Below the pieces are notes generated by a model that saw nothing but the letters and a program-made list of their open reading frames with translations, did not search any database and was not told the origin of the DNA. A DNA stretch of 14,375 nt from a virus (taxonomy: Duplodnaviria; Heunggongvirae; Uroviricota; Caudoviricetes): IMG/VR virus record IMGVR_UViG_2690316131_000006, one strand, 5' to 3'. Position 1 is the first letter of the stretch, and each line of letters begins with the position of its first letter. This document shows, piece after piece, positions 7,220 through 13,944 of the stretch. The position numbers were made by a program, and so were the translations under genes.

Positions 7220-7285
7220 CCCAGTTAACATTACGCGTCCTGCAAGACGCCTAACATTAATCTGAGGCCAATTTCATGCTAGACA
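7220..7285 (-). ncRNA. sok: Sok-like antisense RNA of the hok locus (approximate position)
   Basis: Minus-strand promoter-like TTGCCT-17 nt-TAACCT at about 7291..7319 pointing leftward into the hok leader; inferred from hok/sok architecture, ends not determined. Confidence 0.3.
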
Positions 7286-7332
7286 TATGTAGGTTAGCCT
7301 CTTACGCGCCGAAAGGCAAGGAGAAGCAGGCT

Positions 7333-7488
7333 ATGAAGCAGCAAAAGGCGATGTTAATCGCCCTGATCGTCATCTGTATCACCGTCATAGTGACGGCACT
7401 GGTAACGAGGAAAGACCTCTGCGAGGTACGAATCCGAACCGGCCAGACGGAGGTCGCTGTCTTCACAGCTTACGAACCTGAGGAGTAA
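7333..7488 (+). CDS. hok: Hok/Gef-family type I toxin, 51 aa
   Basis: MKQQKAMLIALIVICITVIVTALVTRKDLCEVRIRTGQTEVAVFTAYEPEE: transmembrane helix plus conserved C-terminal motif; AAGGAG Shine-Dalgarno; in-frame upstream ATG at 7276 could be a mok-like start; 3' stem-loops and terminator downstream. Confidence 0.9.
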   Translation: MKQQKAMLIALIVICITVIVTALVTRKDLCEVRIRTGQTEVAVFTAYEPEE

Positions 7489-8997: not shown

Positions 8998-9372
8998 ATG
9001 CTCATAGATTTGGTTTTACCTTACCCGCCGACGGTGAACACTTACTGGCGACGCCGTGGCAGCACATATTTTATCTCGGAGGAGGGAAAGCGTTATCGCC
9101 GGGCTGTGGCGCTTATTGTTCGCCAGCAGCGGCTGAAATTAAGCCTGTCCGGAAGGCTGGCGATAAAGATTATTGCCGAGCCACCGGATAAGCGCCGCCG
9201 TGACTTGGACAATATTCTGAAAGCGCCGCTGGATGCGCTGACGCATGCGGGGTTGCTAATGGACGATGAGCAGTTTGATGAAATCAATATCGTTCGTGCT
9301 CAGCCAGTATCTGGTGGACGTCTGGGGGTGAAGATTTACCCCATAATGCTTGAAGGGCAGGTCAAAAAATGA
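8998..9372 (+). CDS. rusA: RusA-family Holliday junction resolvase
   Basis: 124 aa; PPTVNTYWRRRG...DKRRRDLDNILKAPLDALTHAGLLMDDEQ matches the RusA pattern (…RRDLDN…DAL…DD…); AGAGG Shine-Dalgarno. Confidence 0.85.
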   Translation: MLIDLVLPYPPTVNTYWRRRGSTYFISEEGKRYRRAVALIVRQQRLKLSLSGRLAIKIIAEPPDKRRRDLDNILKAPLDALTHAGLLMDDEQFDEINIVRAQPVSGGRLGVKIYPIMLEGQVKK

Positions 9373-10190
9373 AACTGGAAGATTTACCGAAATACTACTC
9401 CCCAAAATCCCCCGGCCTGACTGATGCATCGGCCTCAACGTCGAAAGATACGCTGAGTATCACTGATGTGATGGCTGCGCAGGGCATGACACAGAATTGG
9501 GCTGAGATGGGGTTTTCTGCGTTCCTTGGGAAAATGGGCATTAGTATGAATGACAGAGAGCGGGCAACAGAATTGCTGACAGAATATGCACTCAGTCGGT
9601 GTGATCGCGTGGCGGCGTTAAGAAAACTCCCGGCAGAAATAAAACCGGCAGTGATGCGTATTATGGCTTCGTATGCGTTTGAAGATTATGCCCGTAGCGC
9701 GGCGAGCAAAAAACAGTGCCCCTGTTGTCACGGAAAAAAATTTATTGAAAGCGAGGTTTTTACAAACAAGATCCAGTATCCGGATGGTAAGCCGCCAGTG
9801 TGGGCAAAGTGCACAAAAGGCGTGTATCCGTCTTACTGGGAGGAATGGAAAAAAGTCAGGGAGGTGGTAAAAGTTGCCTGTCCGGAGTGTGGAGGGAAGG
9901 GGGAGGTTTCCACCGCCTGTAAAGATTGTCGTGGGCGCGGTGTTGCCATTCATCGTGAAGAGTCGGTAAAACGTGGTATGCCTGTTATCAGAGACTGCCA
10001 GCGTTGTGGTGGTCGTGGCTATGAAAGATTACCTTCAACGGAGGCATTTAATGCCATATGTAATGTAACCGATGCCATATCTCTTGATACATGGAAAAAA
10101 ACAGTTAAACGTTTTTACGATACGCTGGTGGTGCAGTTTGATATTGAAGAAGCATGGGCAGAACAACAACTGAAAAAGGTGACCAGATAG
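9369..10190 (+). CDS. Putative late-gene antiterminator (Q-like, QuuQ-type position) with four DnaJ-type CxxCxGxG zinc-finger repeats
   Basis: ATGA overlap with rusA; CPCCHGKK, CPECGGKG, CKDCRGRG, CQRCGGRG; immediately followed by a strong promoter and a terminator. Call is by position. Confidence 0.55.
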   Translation: MKLEDLPKYYSPKSPGLTDASASTSKDTLSITDVMAAQGMTQNWAEMGFSAFLGKMGISMNDRERATELLTEYALSRCDRVAALRKLPAEIKPAVMRIMASYAFEDYARSAASKKQCPCCHGKKFIESEVFTNKIQYPDGKPPVWAKCTKGVYPSYWEEWKKVREVVKVACPECGGKGEVSTACKDCRGRGVAIHREESVKRGMPVIRDCQRCGGRGYERLPSTEAFNAICNVTDAISLDTWKKTVKRFYDTLVVQFDIEEAWAEQQLKKVTR

Positions 10191-10192
10191 CT

Positions 10193-10223
10193 TTGTTGAT
10201 TTTTCCCGAATCTGTGGTAAAAT
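10193..10223 (+). promoter_or_regulatory. Late promoter (pR'-like) with extended -10 (TGgTAAAAT)
   Basis: TTGTTGA -35-like, about 17-18 nt spacer, TGgTAAAAT at 10215..10223, directly after the Q-like stop. Confidence 0.5.
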
Positions 10224-10270
10224 TGCCCTAACGATGGGCGTTTTATGCCTGACGTTAGAAGATTTTTTAC

Positions 10271-10294
10271 ACCCGTCGCCAGGCGGGTTTTTTT
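10271..10294 (+). terminator. tR'-like intrinsic terminator about 45-65 nt downstream of the late promoter
   Basis: ACCCG-tcgccagg-CGGGT hairpin followed by seven T. Confidence 0.55.
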
Positions 10295-10416
10295 ATGACT
10301 GAAATCACGCCAGTACAGTAAACGCGCTGGTGGTTGTGAATACCGGTCTTTCAGCTTGCTGGCTTTTTCGACAAGAGTTATTGGTATGTCACGTTAACCA
10401 GAAAAGGGAAAAAGAC

Positions 10417-10614
10417 ATGCTAAAACAGCAGGATATGACCGAAACCGCCAGAGTGGTGTTTAATGAATTAAGCGTCACCGAACCGGCGACCGTCGGGGAA
10501 ATTGCGCAGAATACTTACCTTTCACGCGAACGTTGCCAGTTAATACTGACCCAGCTTGTTATGGCGGGTCTGGCAGATTATCAGTTCGGTTGTTACAGAC
10601 GCCTTCCGCAGTGA
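10417..10614 (+). CDS. Small winged-helix-like protein, 65 aa
   Basis: ATG 10417 with AAGGG upstream; sequence ...TVGEIAQNTYLSRERCQLILTQLVMAGLADY; its 3' end overlaps a terminator hairpin. Confidence 0.45.
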   Translation: MLKQQDMTETARVVFNELSVTEPATVGEIAQNTYLSRERCQLILTQLVMAGLADYQFGCYRRLPQ

Positions 10615-10626
10615 AGGTTTTTTTTA
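10602..10626 (+). terminator. Intrinsic terminator
   Basis: CCTTC-cgcagt-GAAGG hairpin followed by nine T. Confidence 0.5.
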
Positions 10627-10765
10627 TTTGTGGTAATGGGCGGCTGGTGGGTGTTAGCGGCACCTGCCAGCCATCTGCTCATGCGTTGGGGTCACAAGCA
10701 AACCTCAGGCCCATCTGCTTTGCGCAAAAGCAGAACGAGCCTATCAGAGAAGTGCTTACTGATCT

Positions 10766-11791
10766 ATGGTCAATACTGTAAAAATATCCAGTTGTGAATT
10801 AATCAACGCTGATTGCCTGGAATTTATCCAGACCTTACCGGAAAACTCTGTCGATCTGATAGTCACAGACCCGCCATACTTTAAAGTGAAGCCCGAAGGC
10901 TGGGATAACCAGTGGAAGGGCGACGATGATTACCTGAAATGGCTGGACCAGTGTCTGGCGCAGTTCTGGCGGTTACTGAAGCCTGCCGGAAGTCTTTACC
11001 TGTTCTGTGGTCATCGCCTGGCATCTGATATCGAAATCATGATGCGCGAACGCTTTAACGTGCTGAACCATATCATCTGGGCGAAGCCGTCCGGACGCTG
11101 GAACGGGTGCAGTAAGGAAAGCCTGCGGGCGTATTTTCCCGCCACAGAGCGTATTCTGTTTGCTGAACATTATCAGGGGCCATACCAGCCAAAAAATGGC
11201 GGCTATGCGGCAAAGGAGCGCGAGCTTAAACAGCATGTGATGTCTCCGCTGATTTCTTACTTTCGTGATGCGCGTGAATCACTGGGGATAACGTCGAAAC
11301 AGATAGCGGAAGCCACCGGAAAGAAAAACATGGTGTCGCACTGGTTTGGTGCCCGCCAGTGGCAGTTACCGAACGAGGATGATTACAGAAAACTGCAGGC
11401 GTTGTTTGCGCGTGTTGCAGCAGAAAAACATCAACGCGGGGAACTGGAAAAGCCACACCACCAGCTGGTCAGCACATACAGTGAACTTAACCGGCAATAT
11501 GCCAGCCTGCTGGAGGAGTACAAATCTTTGCGGCGTTATTTTTCTGTATCGGCTGCTGTTCCGTATACGGATGTCTGGATGTATAAGCCTGTACAGTATT
11601 ATCCGGGCAAACACCCCTGTGAAAAACCGGCAGATATGTTGCGTCAGATAATAGAGGCCAGCAGTCGTCCGGGTGATTTGGTTGCCGACTTTTTTATGGG
11701 GTCAGGTTCCACGATAAAAGCCGCGCTTTCGCTTGGTCGTCGGGCAATAGGCGTTGTGAGCTTGAGGCTGAACGGTTTGAGCAGACGGTGA
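10766..11791 (+). CDS. DNA methyltransferase, beta-class amino-methyltransferase (N6-adenine or N4-cytosine)
   Basis: N-terminal motif IV DLIVTDPPYF and C-terminal motif I DLVADFFMGSGST (order IV then I); 341 aa; no adjacent restriction endonuclease seen. Confidence 0.85.
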   Translation: MVNTVKISSCELINADCLEFIQTLPENSVDLIVTDPPYFKVKPEGWDNQWKGDDDYLKWLDQCLAQFWRLLKPAGSLYLFCGHRLASDIEIMMRERFNVLNHIIWAKPSGRWNGCSKESLRAYFPATERILFAEHYQGPYQPKNGGYAAKERELKQHVMSPLISYFRDARESLGITSKQIAEATGKKNMVSHWFGARQWQLPNEDDYRKLQALFARVAAEKHQRGELEKPHHQLVSTYSELNRQYASLLEEYKSLRRYFSVSAAVPYTDVWMYKPVQYYPGKHPCEKPADMLRQIIEASSRPGDLVADFFMGSGSTIKAALSLGRRAIGVVSLRLNGLSRR

Positions 11792-11938
11792 GCGAGATAA
11801 GAGAAATTCTGACGTGTAAAGCTGTTGATTGATTAATTAATGCTTATTTTTTCATAAGTCTTGTTGCAATATATAAGTATGGGGTGTAAAGTTGTTCTCG
11901 AAAATAATCATGTTTTCTCACGAATCAGAGGGGGGATA

Positions 11939-12199
11939 ATGATTGAGGTTCGATGGACAAGGACAGCCCTGAAGCAGTTACTTCGTGTGGATACGCGGTA
12001 TCGGCAGGCGATAAAGGATAAGGTCGGTGCGCTAAAGGATTTTCCTCTGGTAGCCATGGATTTTAAAAAGCTATCAGGGAGTGACAATCGATTCCGTTTG
12101 AGGGTCGGCGTGTACAGGGTTATTTTTGATGTTGAGGATGGTGATCCTGTTGTCCTGGATATTAAGGAAATTAAGCGCAGAAGCACAACCACATACTAA
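11939..12199 (+). CDS. RelE/ParE-superfamily type II toxin (HigB-like, toxin-first order)
   Basis: 86 aa; ...NRFRLRVGVYRVIFDVEDGDPVVLDIKEIKRR typical of the RelE/ParE fold; GAGGGGGG Shine-Dalgarno. Confidence 0.8.
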   Translation: MIEVRWTRTALKQLLRVDTRYRQAIKDKVGALKDFPLVAMDFKKLSGSDNRFRLRVGVYRVIFDVEDGDPVVLDIKEIKRRSTTTY

Positions 12200-12259: not shown

Positions 12260-12634
12260 ATGAAAAACAGTGTCCAGTTTATTACTGATAATGCCGGTGT
12301 TAGAACCGGGGTCATTATGTCAGTTGCTGAATATGAACGGCTGTTAAGTCTGGCAGATCCTGATGATGATTTTGAAAGCATCCAGTATGAAGCCGGAGAG
12401 AATGACAATGAAACAATACCTCATGAAGTAGTATCCATCATGATTGATGATGATGTGTCATTGTTGGCAGCATGGCGGATTTACAGGCGAATGACTCAAC
12501 AGGAAGTGGCGGAGCGCCTGGGGGTTAAACAGTCAGCCGTATCTCAGTTTGAGAGAGCAGGAGCTCCGCGAAAATCAACACTGGAAAAACTGGCTGAGAT
12601 TTACAACTGCCGACCAAATCAGTTGGCTGATTAA
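12260..12634 (+). CDS. HigA-like antitoxin with C-terminal XRE helix-turn-helix
   Basis: 124 aa; ...MTQQEVAERLGVKQSAVSQFERAGAPRKSTLEKLAEIY; directly downstream of the toxin. Confidence 0.8.
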   Translation: MKNSVQFITDNAGVRTGVIMSVAEYERLLSLADPDDDFESIQYEAGENDNETIPHEVVSIMIDDDVSLLAAWRIYRRMTQQEVAERLGVKQSAVSQFERAGAPRKSTLEKLAEIYNCRPNQLAD

Positions 12635-12941: not shown

Positions 12942-13373
12942 ATGTTTGGTATTTTCAAAAAGAAAACCCGCAGAGCAGCAACTGAAATTAAAAAGTTTGA
13001 GAAACGCGATCTGGCACAGGCGGTTATTAATGCTGCCTACCTGGTGGCCTATGCAGATGGTGAATGTGAGACTTCAGAGAAAGCGAAGATCGAACAGGTA
13101 TTACGTAACCAGCCAGCATTGTCCGCATTTACGTCAGAAATTAATGCCATCAGTGCCACGATCACAGGTCAGCTTGACACCAATTTTAAAATTGGTCGTC
13201 GTGCAGCGTTGCGTGAAATTGAAGATGTGAAACACGATACGCGTGAAGCGGAAGACGTGCTGGATGTGGCGGTGGCCATTGCTGAAGCAGATGGTGAAAT
13301 TGAGCCGGAAGAGCGTAAGGTTCTGGAAGAGATTGCTGGTGTTCTTGGCCTGCGACTGGAGAACCACCTGTGA
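12942..13373 (+). CDS. TerB-family (tellurite-resistance TerB-like) protein, 143 aa
   Basis: Two acidic ADGE motifs (AYADGECETSEKAKIEQ and AEADGEIEPEERKVLEEI) typical of TerB; AAAAGGAAAAG upstream of ATG. Confidence 0.75.
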   Translation: MFGIFKKKTRRAATEIKKFEKRDLAQAVINAAYLVAYADGECETSEKAKIEQVLRNQPALSAFTSEINAISATITGQLDTNFKIGRRAALREIEDVKHDTREAEDVLDVAVAIAEADGEIEPEERKVLEEIAGVLGLRLENHL

Positions 13374-13537: not shown

Positions 13538-13704
13538 TTTTTTTGTTTGCTGTTTATTAAAAACACTTCTGCATGGTGAATCCCCCTGTGCGGTGGGGCA
13601 ATCAGCAAGAAGGAATATGGGGTAATCGCGGATTCAGGTGCTGATACTGAATTCACCGGGAGGCACCCGGCACCATGCAAGAAAAAGAATGTGCATGCAA
13701 ACAT

Positions 13705-13728
13705 GCCCCTCTCCGGAGGGGCTTTTTT
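13705..13728 (+). terminator. Intrinsic terminator
   Basis: Perfect GCCCCTC-tccg-GAGGGGC hairpin followed by six T. Confidence 0.65.
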
Positions 13729-13732
13729 ATGG

Positions 13733-13760
13733 GTAAAAAAATGCCCGAATGGGTTCGGGC
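13733..13760 (-). terminator. Convergent (minus-strand) terminator-like hairpin
   Basis: GCCCGAA-tggg-TTCGGGC, which on the minus strand is followed by TTTTTTT (13733..13739). Confidence 0.4.
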
Positions 13761-13944
13761 AATAGCATGAGATACTGATATTGTTGTGTTGTTATCGTGT
13801 GGATTTTAACCAGGGTTTATCAGGCTGCGCAACTGCGTGGCCTTTTTTCATTTCTTGGGCTGTAGTCCCCGTGTGTCATTCAGGCTTCCGGACTACAGCC
13901 CACTCCATATCTGATTTAATACACTATCCCGGCCGGGAGGAATA

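What the first reader, a model, noticed from the sequence alone, without database searches (positions are those of the whole stretch)
10417..11791. Orphan beta-class DNA methyltransferase preceded by a small winged-helix protein
The methyltransferase has no cognate endonuclease in the window, consistent with a phage anti-restriction or epigenetic methylase. The 65-aa winged-helix protein upstream could be a controller-like regulator. The perfect hairpin CTGCTTT-gcgca-AAAGCAG (10715..10733) and a repeated CCATCTGCT (10670, 10711) in the leader suggest regulation.
Basis: partly seen in the sequence, partly recalled or inferred. Interest (0 to 1): 0.45.

Follow-up and report, generated by a model that had tools for sequence, protein, structure and literature searches.

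The report
Frameshifted M.EcoGII-type methylase, conserved RNA leader
The gene is a prophage copy of the already well-known non-specific adenine methylase M.EcoGII, here damaged by a 2-base insertion, but the 'leader' in front of it is one copy of a widespread, apparently undescribed structured RNA that sits ahead of toxic late genes in many phages.

Summary
Three parts of the reading need correcting.

1. **The methylase is a known enzyme.** It is about 84% identical to M.EcoGII, the characterised non-specific N6-adenine methylase of E. coli prophages. It lies in the late operon, behind the Q antiterminator and the pR'/tR' promoter and terminator.

2. **The frame is not intact.** A 2-bp insertion near 11755-11758 replaces the last 24 conserved residues, including the invariant Glu of 'IGVE'. 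The nearest genome carries +2 at the same site, and NCBI's annotation pipeline (PGAP) calls that gene 'frameshifted'.

3. **The small protein is a winged helix but not a controller protein.** The AlphaFold2 (AF2) model has mean pLDDT 91.5. The gene is missing from 16 of 57 homologous loci.

**The leader is the interesting part.** The hairpin is one helix (P4) of a ~135-nt structured RNA with a three-way junction (P1-P3), P4 and a conserved tail.
- It is more conserved than the flanking genes and is supported by compensatory changes.
- It has no Rfam match.
- Related copies precede M.EcoGII-like methylases, Mom proteins, C5 methylases, ParB-methylases and holins in other phages.
- Its function is inferred only: cis control of toxic late genes.

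The parts
9369..10190 (+). Q-type late antiterminator gene, placing everything downstream in the late operon
   Evidence: Pfam PF03589 Antiterm, E=4.7e-50. RefSeq annotates the identical protein as 'antitermination protein'.
10196..10223 (+). pR'-like late promoter: TTGATT, 16-nt spacer, TG-extended TAAAAT
   Evidence: Consensus scan, sequence read, position directly after Q. Promoter function is inferred, not shown.
10271..10295 (+). tR'-like intrinsic terminator: stem ACCCGUC/GGCGGGU followed by U7. A second weaker candidate lies at 10224-10240.
   Evidence: Terminator scan. Phage SfV carries an annotated terminator at the equivalent place.
10417..10614 (+). 65-aa winged-helix protein of unknown function
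   Evidence: AF2 mean pLDDT 91.5, H-H-H-strand-strand topology. Foldseek best matches are winged-helix domains, TM 0.7-0.84. Pfam TrmB match is below cutoff (E=0.0026). 334 homologues, named 'TrmB family' or 'DprA-like winged helix' by their sources.
10601..10626 (+). Second terminator-like hairpin plus U8, overlapping the stop codon of the winged-helix ORF. A hairpin of this kind lies immediately 5' of the RNA element in most of the loci examined.
   Evidence: Terminator scan. Upstream sequences of loci with and without the winged-helix gene.
10630..10765 (+). Conserved structured RNA leader. P1 10637-10641/10709-10713. P2 10642-10653/10661-10672. P3 10676-10679/10697-10700. Tail with GAGCCUAUCAGAG at 10737-10749. 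Possible P5 just before the start codon.
   Evidence: Alignments A4/A5. RNAalifold consensus. Pair counts: 95.6% of cells paired, 0 of 500 shuffles as good. 23 of 26 pairs show compensatory change once divergent members are added. On a diverse viral set 87% of cells pair against 65% in shuffles. No Rfam match. P5 support is weak.
10766..11791 (+). M.EcoGII-family beta-class N6-adenine methylase ORF as it stands, 341 aa with a frameshifted C-terminus
   Evidence: Pfam PF01555 covers only profile positions 1-209 of 221, against 1-219 in the intact allele. The frame-corrected allele is about 84% identical to M.EcoGII.
11755..11758 (+). Site of the 2-bp insertion (TG/GT) that shifts the frame
   Evidence: Alignments to PPyecE_EH1910, phiP27 and three E. 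coli chromosomes. No exact match to this allele among 5,426 complete E. coli genomes. FORC_042 has +2 at the same site, and its gene is annotated 'frameshifted'.
11758..11832 (+). Displaced original C-terminal coding sequence, ELEAERFEQTVSEIREILTCKAVD*, now out of frame
   Evidence: Translation is identical to the C-terminus of the intact homologue. This segment is conserved across genera.

Best explanation
The region is the first cassette of a lambdoid prophage late operon. The order is Q antiterminator, pR' promoter and tR' terminator, a 65-aa winged-helix gene, a second terminator, a ~135-nt structured RNA leader, and an M.EcoGII-family non-specific N6-adenine methylase.

**How the intact module is expected to work (inferred from context and from published work on M.EcoGII).** In a lysogen, transcripts from pR' stop at the terminators, so the toxic methylase stays silent. 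After induction, RNA polymerase modified by Q reads through the terminators. The methylase is then made late and methylates progeny phage DNA at adenines in any context, which protects it from many restriction enzymes.

**This copy is probably inactive.** A 2-bp insertion replaces the last 24 residues. These include the conserved acidic residue after strand beta-2 and the helix that follows it.

**The winged-helix protein** is a frequent but dispensable partner of unknown role. It is not a controller protein.

**The leader** is one member of a widespread phage RNA family placed just after a terminator and just before the first late gene. That gene is a DNA-modification enzyme or a holin. The most likely role of the RNA is cis-acting post-transcriptional control (translation or stability) of genes that would be lethal if leaky. 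This last step is inference only.
For: **Late-operon position**
- The Q gene, a promoter-like site and terminators lie directly upstream.
- The same order is seen in phiP27, SfV and PPyecE_EH1910, and in Klebsiella, Salmonella and Buttiauxella prophages behind four different Q families.

**Family assignment**
- Pfam PF01555.
- 295 of 350 residues are identical to M.EcoGII over its full length, including the target-recognition region. The M.EcoGII sequence was taken from the supplement of PMC11551740.
- The M.EcoGII paper itself names the phage 1720a-02 homologue as very similar. That phage is hit H9 here.
- Published properties of M.EcoGII: non-specific, toxic when expressed constitutively, silent in the lysogen (PMC5778455).

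**Frameshift**
- Alignments and translations.
- PGAP annotates the FORC_042 gene as 'frameshifted'.
- Among 9 genomes that match a 69-nt probe across the site, only FORC_042 carries the extra 2 nt.
- The lost Glu aligns with Glu or Asp in CcrM, M.MboIIA, HpyAVI/DpnA and M.RsrI.

**RNA leader**
- Median nucleotide identity to the window is 75.9% for the leader, 71.7% for the methylase coding sequence and 65.9% for the winged-helix coding sequence.
- Covariation.
- In viral contigs, 114 of 121 copies of its 21-mer are followed by the methylase start at a fixed 129-131 nt.
- Related copies precede Mom, C5 methylase, ParB-methylase and holin genes and lie downstream of Q-like genes.
Against: - No expression, methylation or RNA-probing data exist for this locus.
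- The M.EcoGII sequence used was machine-read from a supplement and contains a few reading errors, so 84% identity is approximate.
- Non-specificity is extrapolated from about 84% identity, not measured.
- The frameshifted protein still keeps motif IV (DPPY) and motif I (FxGxG), so residual activity cannot be excluded.
- The insertion could be an assembly error. The window also differs from three relatives by one G in a G-run at 11929.
- No mechanism for the RNA is shown. My tests of pairing between the leader and the start-codon region found no covariation support.
- The methylase genes of two Erwinia/Pantoea homologues and of Proteus, Shewanella and one Vibrio homologue lack the RNA. It is therefore not obligatory.
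Confidence: 0.8

Rival explanations
1. This is an intact orphan methylase whose expression is set by the upstream winged-helix protein acting like an R-M controller (C) protein, on operators formed by the hairpin and the repeated 9-mer.
For: - The small protein is a confident winged helix.
- It sits upstream of the methylase in 41 of 57 species-representative loci and in 110 of 114 viral contigs with enough upstream sequence.
- P4 is also a DNA palindrome.
Against: - The frame is broken.
- The fold class is winged helix, not the Xre-type HTH of C proteins, and there is no HTH_3 match.
- There is no endonuclease gene to control.
- 16 of 57 loci keep the leader and the methylase without the winged-helix gene.
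- The 9-mer repeat is not conserved.
- P4 changes by compensatory substitutions, and P2 holds G-U pairs that make sense only in plus-strand RNA.
Confidence: 0.07
2. The 2-bp insertion is an assembly or sequencing artefact, or is tolerated. Under this reading the methylase in the real organism is functional.
For: - FORC_042 has +2 at the same spot but with a different base (TT instead of TG). This is odd for a simple inherited mutation.
- The window also has a one-base homopolymer difference at 11929.
- Motifs IV and I survive.
Against: - In the window the insertion is a TG dinucleotide, not a homopolymer run.
- A second, independent record also shows +2, and its gene is annotated as a frameshifted pseudogene.
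- The replaced segment is conserved from Escherichia to Buttiauxella and aligns with conserved Glu/Asp and the following helix in solved beta-class enzymes.
Confidence: 0.25
3. The conserved leader works as DNA, for example as a late promoter or an activator or operator site, rather than as RNA.
For: - The leader starts with a TG-containing, -10-like stretch (UGUGRAAAU).
- P4 and P2 are also DNA palindromes.
- It occurs in front of the same gene classes (Mom-type DNA modification, lysis) that are under late transcriptional control in phage Mu (my own knowledge, not tested here).
Against: - Whole helices are swapped for unrelated sequences while pairing is kept.
- Many U-G pairs would be A-C mismatches on the other strand.
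- There is no conserved -35 element, and the -10-like hexamer itself varies.
- A start site at that position would fall inside P1.
Confidence: 0.08
4. The RNA does not control translation. Instead it is a processing or self-cleaving element, a 5' stabiliser, a stand-alone small RNA, or an RNA that modifies RNA polymerase (put-like).
For: - It always follows a terminator-like hairpin and heads the late transcript.
- In Vibrio, Acinetobacter and related loci it lies upstream of a Com gene rather than next to the methylase start.
- I found no covariation for pairing with the ribosome-binding region.
Against: - In enterobacterial copies the distance to the start codon is fixed at 129-131 nt.
- There is no Shine-Dalgarno sequence, and the conserved sequence runs right up to the AUG.
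- There is no significant match of the models to the HK022 put regions and no Rfam ribozyme match.
Confidence: 0.25

Closest known systems
M.EcoGII (E. coli O104:H4 C227-11 prophage; Murray et al. 2018, PMC5778455)
   Same: - About 84% identical over the full length.
- Beta-class order: DPPY, then the target-recognition domain with a helix-turn-helix, then FxGxG.
- Prophage-borne and an orphan.
- Expected to be silent in lysogens.
- The paper's named relative, phage 1720a-02, carries the same winged-helix, leader and methylase block.
   Different: - This copy has a 2-bp insertion that replaces the last 24 residues.
- Its activity and specificity are untested.
- The passages I retrieved from the M.EcoGII papers say nothing about the upstream RNA or the small protein. 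I did not read those papers in full.
Phage Mu com-mom, and the non-specific adenine methylases Hin1523/Hia5/Nma1821 of Mu-like prophages (Drozdz et al. 2012, PMC3299994)
   Same: - A late, toxic, broad-spectrum DNA-modification gene under extra post-transcriptional control.
- Distant M.EcoGII homologues in Acinetobacter, Vibrio, Shewanella and one other gammaproteobacterium are preceded by Com-like zinc-ribbon ORFs, confirmed by Pfam PF10122 for two.
- The RNA family also precedes Mom-family genes.
   Different: - The window has no Com gene.
- Its methylase is preceded by the structured RNA and a winged-helix gene instead.
- Hin1523 and Hia5 are shorter enzymes.
Controller (C) proteins of type II restriction-modification systems
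   Same: A small DNA-binding-type protein encoded just upstream of a restriction-modification-type gene.
   Different: - Winged helix rather than Xre-type HTH.
- No endonuclease partner.
- Not always present.
- The conserved intergenic sequence behaves as RNA.
HK022 put antiterminator RNAs and other phage leader RNAs
   Same: A structured RNA at the head of a phage operon, close to terminators.
   Different: - The covariance models give no significant hit in the HK022 early regions where put lies.
- The only hits in HK022 and lambda are weak partial ones between tR' and the holin gene S (27.8 bits), and they lack the 3' strand of P1.
- The put element acts on early operons (my own knowledge).
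Rfam 15 families
   Same: None.
   Different: No match at E<=10 on the leader itself. No match at E<=1 in eleven loci that carry the motif.

Membership tests
Beta-class N6/N4 amino-methyltransferases (Pfam PF01555) | Profile score above the curated cutoff | tested here: met
   142.7 bits against a cutoff of 26.7.
Beta-class N6/N4 amino-methyltransferases (Pfam PF01555) | Motif IV (DPPY) lies N-terminal to motif I (FxGxG), with the target-recognition region between them | tested here: met
   DPPYF at residues 35-39 and FFMGSGST at 309-316, with a ~130-aa insert between them.
Beta-class N6/N4 amino-methyltransferases (Pfam PF01555) | Conserved acidic residue after the strand that follows motif I ('IG[IV]E/D'), plus the C-terminal helix | tested here: not met
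   The window reads IGVVSLRLNG..., whereas intact homologues read IGVELEAERF.... The aligned residue is Glu or Asp in CcrM, MboIIA, HpyAVI/DpnA and RsrI. The Pfam match stops at profile position 209 of 221, against 219 for the intact allele. The gene descends from the family but is a damaged copy.
M.EcoGII clade (non-specific adenine methylases) | High full-length identity to M.EcoGII, including the target-recognition domain | tested here: met
   295 of 350 identical for the frame-corrected allele. The reference sequence was machine-read, so the figure is approximate.
M.EcoGII clade (non-specific adenine methylases) | Methylation of adenine in any sequence context | not testable with these tools
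   This needs LC-MS or SMRT data on DNA from cells expressing the gene.
M.EcoGII clade (non-specific adenine methylases) | Prophage location with silence in the lysogen | tested here: inconclusive
   The prophage late-operon position behind Q, pR' and two terminators is shown. Silence is inferred, not measured.
R-M controller (C) proteins | Xre/HTH_3-type helix-turn-helix fold | tested here: not met
   No HTH_3 match, only a weak TrmB match. The AF2 model is a winged helix.
R-M controller (C) proteins | Encoded with, and controlling, a restriction endonuclease gene | tested here: not met
   There is no endonuclease in the window or in the homologous loci examined. The neighbours vary: tRNAs and stx, HicAB, holins, RelE.
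R-M controller (C) proteins | Constant partnership with the regulated gene | tested here: not met
   Absent upstream of the leader and methylase in 16 of 57 loci.
Mu Com-type translational activation | Com zinc-ribbon ORF (PF10122) directly upstream of, or overlapping, the modification gene | tested here: not met
   No Com-like ORF in the window (best tblastn E=0.1, inside Q). Com is present in distant homologues L073 and L067 (E=8e-13 and 1e-8).
Any described RNA family (Rfam 15) | Covariance-model match | tested here: not met
HK022 put-type antiterminator RNA | Sequence and structure similarity to put | tested here: inconclusive
   With filters off, models R1 and R2 give only hits below 8 bits (E>5) in the HK022 early region. 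I had no independent put model to search the window with.

The most novel reading that the evidence does not exclude
The leader belongs to an undescribed class of phage riboregulator, a 'late-leader' RNA with a conserved three-way junction. This RNA would gate expression of genes that are lethal if leaky: non-specific methylases, Mom, C5 methylases and holins. It might do so by folding differently behind fast, pause-free Q-modified polymerase. Alternatively it might bind a metabolite such as SAM, the methylase itself, or the winged-helix protein. In lambdoid phages it would then play the part that the Com protein plays for mom in Mu.
Probability: 0.3. Interest if true: 0.8.

Novelty: new variant of a known kind. 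Interest (0 to 1): 0.6.

Why it matters
M.EcoGII is a widely used reagent for chromatin footprinting, MadID and RNA methylation. It is also an example of how phages escape restriction wholesale. How its toxic gene is kept off in lysogens has only been guessed at.

This analysis shows that the natural gene sits behind a conserved structured RNA. Relatives of that RNA precede Mom, other methylases and holins in many phages. This gives a concrete and testable handle on how phages control lethal late genes. It also suggests a candidate new RNA family for curation.

For this particular window the practical message is the opposite. The methylase copy is probably dead, so methylome experiments on this strain would most likely show nothing.

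Tried and rejected
- **M.EcoGIX.** I first recalled it as the phage non-specific enzyme. The literature shows it is plasmid-borne and specific for single-stranded DNA, so it is not relevant.
- **A coding explanation for leader conservation.** A 53-aa ORF starts at the conserved AUG at 10636 (the ATG inside ORF 10630-10797). It is rejected because homologues differ by 1-2-nt indels. The methylase frame has a stop two codons upstream and no upstream start codon.
- **Long-range pairing of GGUCA (P3 loop) or AAGC with the region just 5' of the AUG.** This would give a pseudoknot or sequester the ribosome-binding site, and it was predicted by single-sequence folding. Inspection of the alignment and an all-pairs scan gave no covariation support.
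- **An AUCAG/CUGAU hairpin in the tail.** It is broken in many sequences.
- **tRNA or tmRNA.** None found.
- **Com gene in the window.** None found.
- **Full-text search for the conserved sequence strings.** Nothing found.
- **Searches for a described late-leader RNA or an EHEC prophage small RNA at this place.** Nothing relevant found.
- **Four viral contigs with the 21-mer but no methylase.** These are truncated leaders recombined onto an unrelated 237-aa gene, not independent uses of the RNA.
Full report
**Setting.** The window is a lambdoid prophage of Escherichia. The gene order is a cI-type repressor, replication genes, a DUF968 gene, RusA, and a 273-aa Q-type antiterminator (PF03589) at 9369-10190. 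After the region under study come a RelE/ParE-HTH toxin-antitoxin pair and a TerB gene. The 1.8 kb around the finding is 99.8-99.9% identical to several E. coli chromosomes. It is 86-93% identical to phage phiP27, PPyecE_EH1910, many Stx2 phages and phage 1720a-02, and 80% identical to Shigella phage SfV. In all of these the order is Q, a terminator, a ~65-aa ORF, the methylase, and then tRNAs and stx, or toxin-antitoxin genes, or the lysis genes.

**Checking the observation.** Both ORFs are at the stated coordinates.
- The large one matches PF01555 at E=2e-41, with DPPY ahead of FxGxG, so 'beta class' is right.
- The small one gives a confident AlphaFold2 model (mean pLDDT 91.5) with three helices and a beta-hairpin wing. 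Its best PDB matches are the winged-helix domains of IclR/MarR regulators, of O-methyltransferases and of SelB. Sequence evidence alone is weak (TrmB E=0.0026, below the cutoff).
- The hairpin is real at 10714-10721/10727-10734. The 9-mer repeat is real at 10671-10679 and 10711-10719.
- No endonuclease lies nearby.

**The frame is not intact.** Compared with PPyecE_EH1910, phiP27 and three near-identical chromosomes, the window has two extra bases at about 11755-11758.
- The product ends IGVVSLRLNGLSRR* at 11791.
- The original ending, ELEAERFEQTVSEIREILTCKAVD*, is still readable in the next frame as far as 11832. It is identical to the intact homologue.
- That ending is conserved from Escherichia to Klebsiella, Salmonella and Buttiauxella. 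In solved beta-class enzymes the aligned residue is Glu (CcrM, HpyAVI/DpnA) or Asp (MboIIA, RsrI), followed by a similar helix.
- From general knowledge of Rossmann-fold methyltransferases, this acidic residue binds the ribose of S-adenosylmethionine. That is my inference, not a result obtained here.
- The Pfam match of the window protein stops at profile position 209 of 221, against 219 for the intact allele.
- The closest record, strain FORC_042, also has +2 at this spot (TT instead of TG), and PGAP marks the gene 'frameshifted'. A 69-nt probe across the site matched 9 of the 5,426 complete E. coli genomes; none carries the window's exact allele, and the other eight lack the insertion.
- I rate inactivation at about 0.7. 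The alternative is an assembly error or a tolerated change.

**What the methylase is.** The frame-corrected protein is about 84% identical over its whole length to M.EcoGII. The M.EcoGII sequence came from the supplement of PMC11551740 and was machine-read, so the figure is approximate.
- M.EcoGII methylates adenine in any context in DNA, and also in RNA. It lies on a prophage, is not expressed in the lysogen, and is harmful when expressed constitutively. Its authors name the phage 1720a-02 enzyme as a close relative (PMC5778455). That phage is among the hits here.
- Reconstructed ancestors of the clade remain largely non-specific (PMC11551740).
However, the enzyme family is already known and even sold commercially.
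- Its position behind Q, a promoter-like site (10196-10223) and two terminator-like hairpins (10271-10295 and 10601-10626) explains the reported silence. That it is transcribed only by Q-modified polymerase is an inference.

**The winged-helix protein.** It has 334 close homologues in Enterobacterales, all unnamed or given generic names.
- It lies about 150 nt upstream of the methylase in Klebsiella, Salmonella and Buttiauxella prophages behind different Q families.
- It is present in 41 of 57 species-representative loci and in 110 of 114 viral contigs with enough upstream sequence.
- In 16 loci it is missing or replaced while the leader and the methylase stay. In one of these the tR' terminator abuts the leader directly.
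- Its sequence drifts to 37% identity where the leader is still 79% identical.
- It fails every test for a controller protein. Its role is unknown.

**The leader.** The 151-nt spacer has a conserved length, and its sequence is conserved better than either flanking gene. Median identity to the window is 75.9%, against 71.7% for the methylase gene and 65.9% for the winged-helix gene.
- RNAalifold and hand inspection give a three-way junction:
  - P1: UGGGC/GCCCA.
  - P3: its closing pair appears as C-G, A-U, U-A and U-G.
  - A conserved tail, GAGCCUAUCAGAG, running up to an AUG with no Shine-Dalgarno sequence.
- On 48 sequences, 95.6% of cells pair. No shuffle out of 500 matches the covariation, and slid controls fall to 27-47% paired.
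- A covariance model found divergent copies in Pseudocitrobacter, a Vibrio plasmid, Acinetobacter and another gammaproteobacterium. In these, whole helices are replaced compensatorily, and 23 of 26 pairs then show double changes. The caveat is that this alignment was fitted to the model.
- A possible P5 next to the start codon has only weak support.
- Rfam 15 has nothing here. Full-text searches for the sequence found nothing.
- The 9-mer repeat falls in the junction after P2 plus the start of P3, and again in P1 plus P4. It is not a repeat in other genera.

- 114 of 121 copies are followed by the methylase start at 129-131 nt. Three are cut by contig ends. Four are truncated leaders fused to an unrelated gene.
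- A looser pattern found 63 more viral loci, of which 46 match the model.
- On this diverse set, 87% of cells pair against 65% in shuffles, and the covariation score is 0.52 against 0.14. P1 was fixed by the search pattern, so its invariance there carries no weight.
- The genes that follow, checked by Pfam on one representative of each class, are:
  - M.EcoGII-like methylases, with or without a Com-like ORF.
  - Mom-family proteins (PF25680).
  - C5 cytosine methylases (PF00145).
  - ParB-domain genes (one also matching N6_N4 methylase).
  - Holins (PF05106, PF16083) followed by apparent endolysin genes (no Pfam match on the one tested).
- Upstream lie Q-like genes (not Pfam-checked) and, in most loci examined, a terminator-like hairpin.
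- In an Acinetobacter Mu-like prophage the order is terminase, the RNA, Com, the methylase, portal.
- Other distant homologues (Shewanella, one Vibrio) have Com but not the RNA. Published work shows that non-specific adenine methylases sit at the mom position behind com genes in Mu-like prophages (PMC3299994).
- A model built on the diverse set gives a weak partial hit in lambda (45014-45155) and HK022 (37095-37236), between tR' and the holin gene S. These hits lack the 3' strand of P1 (27.8 bits). I treat this as a lead only.

**Mechanism.**
- Shown: gene order, family membership, the frameshift, RNA conservation and covariation, and the RNA's association with the first late gene.
- Inferred: Q-dependent expression; methylation of progeny DNA as protection against restriction; loss of activity in this copy; and a cis-acting role of the RNA.
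- What the downstream genes share is that leaky expression would harm or kill the lysogen. That is why I favour a safety device for translation or RNA stability. My attempts to find a switch, such as alternative pairing with the start region, found nothing convincing.

**Verdict.** The finding as written describes a known enzyme family in its usual place, and in this window a probably dead copy. The controller idea is not supported. The value lies in the leader, which is a member of a widespread phage RNA family that appears to be uncatalogued.

Noticed in passing
window 13542-13734 (+) and 13736-13797 (-): Rfam matches to the small RNA STnc100 (142.5 bits) and, on the opposite strand right next to it, the anti-sRNA AgvB (96.5 bits), with a weaker AsxR match.
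   Followed up: no
window 11929: The G-run just upstream of the RelE/ParE toxin start is one G shorter (6 against 7) than in three near-identical chromosomes. It could be real variation in the ribosome-binding region or a homopolymer sequencing error.
   Followed up: no
L003 (E. coli FORC_042), at the position equivalent to window 11755-11756: The closest genome also has a +2 insertion at the same site of the methylase gene, but reads TT where the window reads TG. These are two different +2 alleles in otherwise near-identical DNA (5 other differences in about 7 kb).
   Followed up: partly
window 11939-12199 and 12260-12634: A RelE/ParE-family toxin and an HTH (Xre-type) antitoxin lie directly downstream of the methylase, followed by TerB at 12942-13373. 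In other phages this slot holds stx and tRNA genes, HicAB, or the lysis genes.
   Followed up: no
window 7276-7488 (+): The corresponding stretch in near-identical genomes is annotated as the type I toxin HokD.
   Followed up: no
L279 (phage lambda 45014-45155) and L278 (HK022 37095-37236): A weak partial match of the broader RNA model lies between tR' and the holin gene S (27.8 bits, E about 5e-5). P2 and P3 are recognisable, but the 3' strand of P1 is absent.
   Followed up: partly
L073 2320-2508, L067 2365-2547, L063 2338-2523, L062, L069: Distant M.EcoGII homologues are preceded by Com-like zinc-ribbon ORFs that overlap the methylase start, as in Mu com-mom. Pfam PF10122 confirms two of them. 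L073, L067 and L069 have the RNA motif upstream of Com as well.
   Followed up: partly
L215-L277 (viral contigs): The same RNA architecture precedes Mom-family genes, C5 cytosine methylases, ParB-domain genes (one also an N6_N4 methylase) and holin-led lysis cassettes.
   Followed up: partly
window 10761-10764, and the same position in 47 of 48 aligned loci: A GATC (Dam site) sits 2 nt before the methylase start codon and is almost invariant.
   Followed up: no
L111, L149, L175, L194 (viral contigs): The leader is cut off after P2 and joined to AT-rich DNA carrying an unrelated 237-aa gene. This looks like a recombination scar where the methylase was replaced.
   Followed up: partly
L029 and L037, about 2058-2297: In two loci a 79-aa cysteine-rich protein with no Pfam match occupies the place of the winged-helix gene upstream of the leader.
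   Followed up: no
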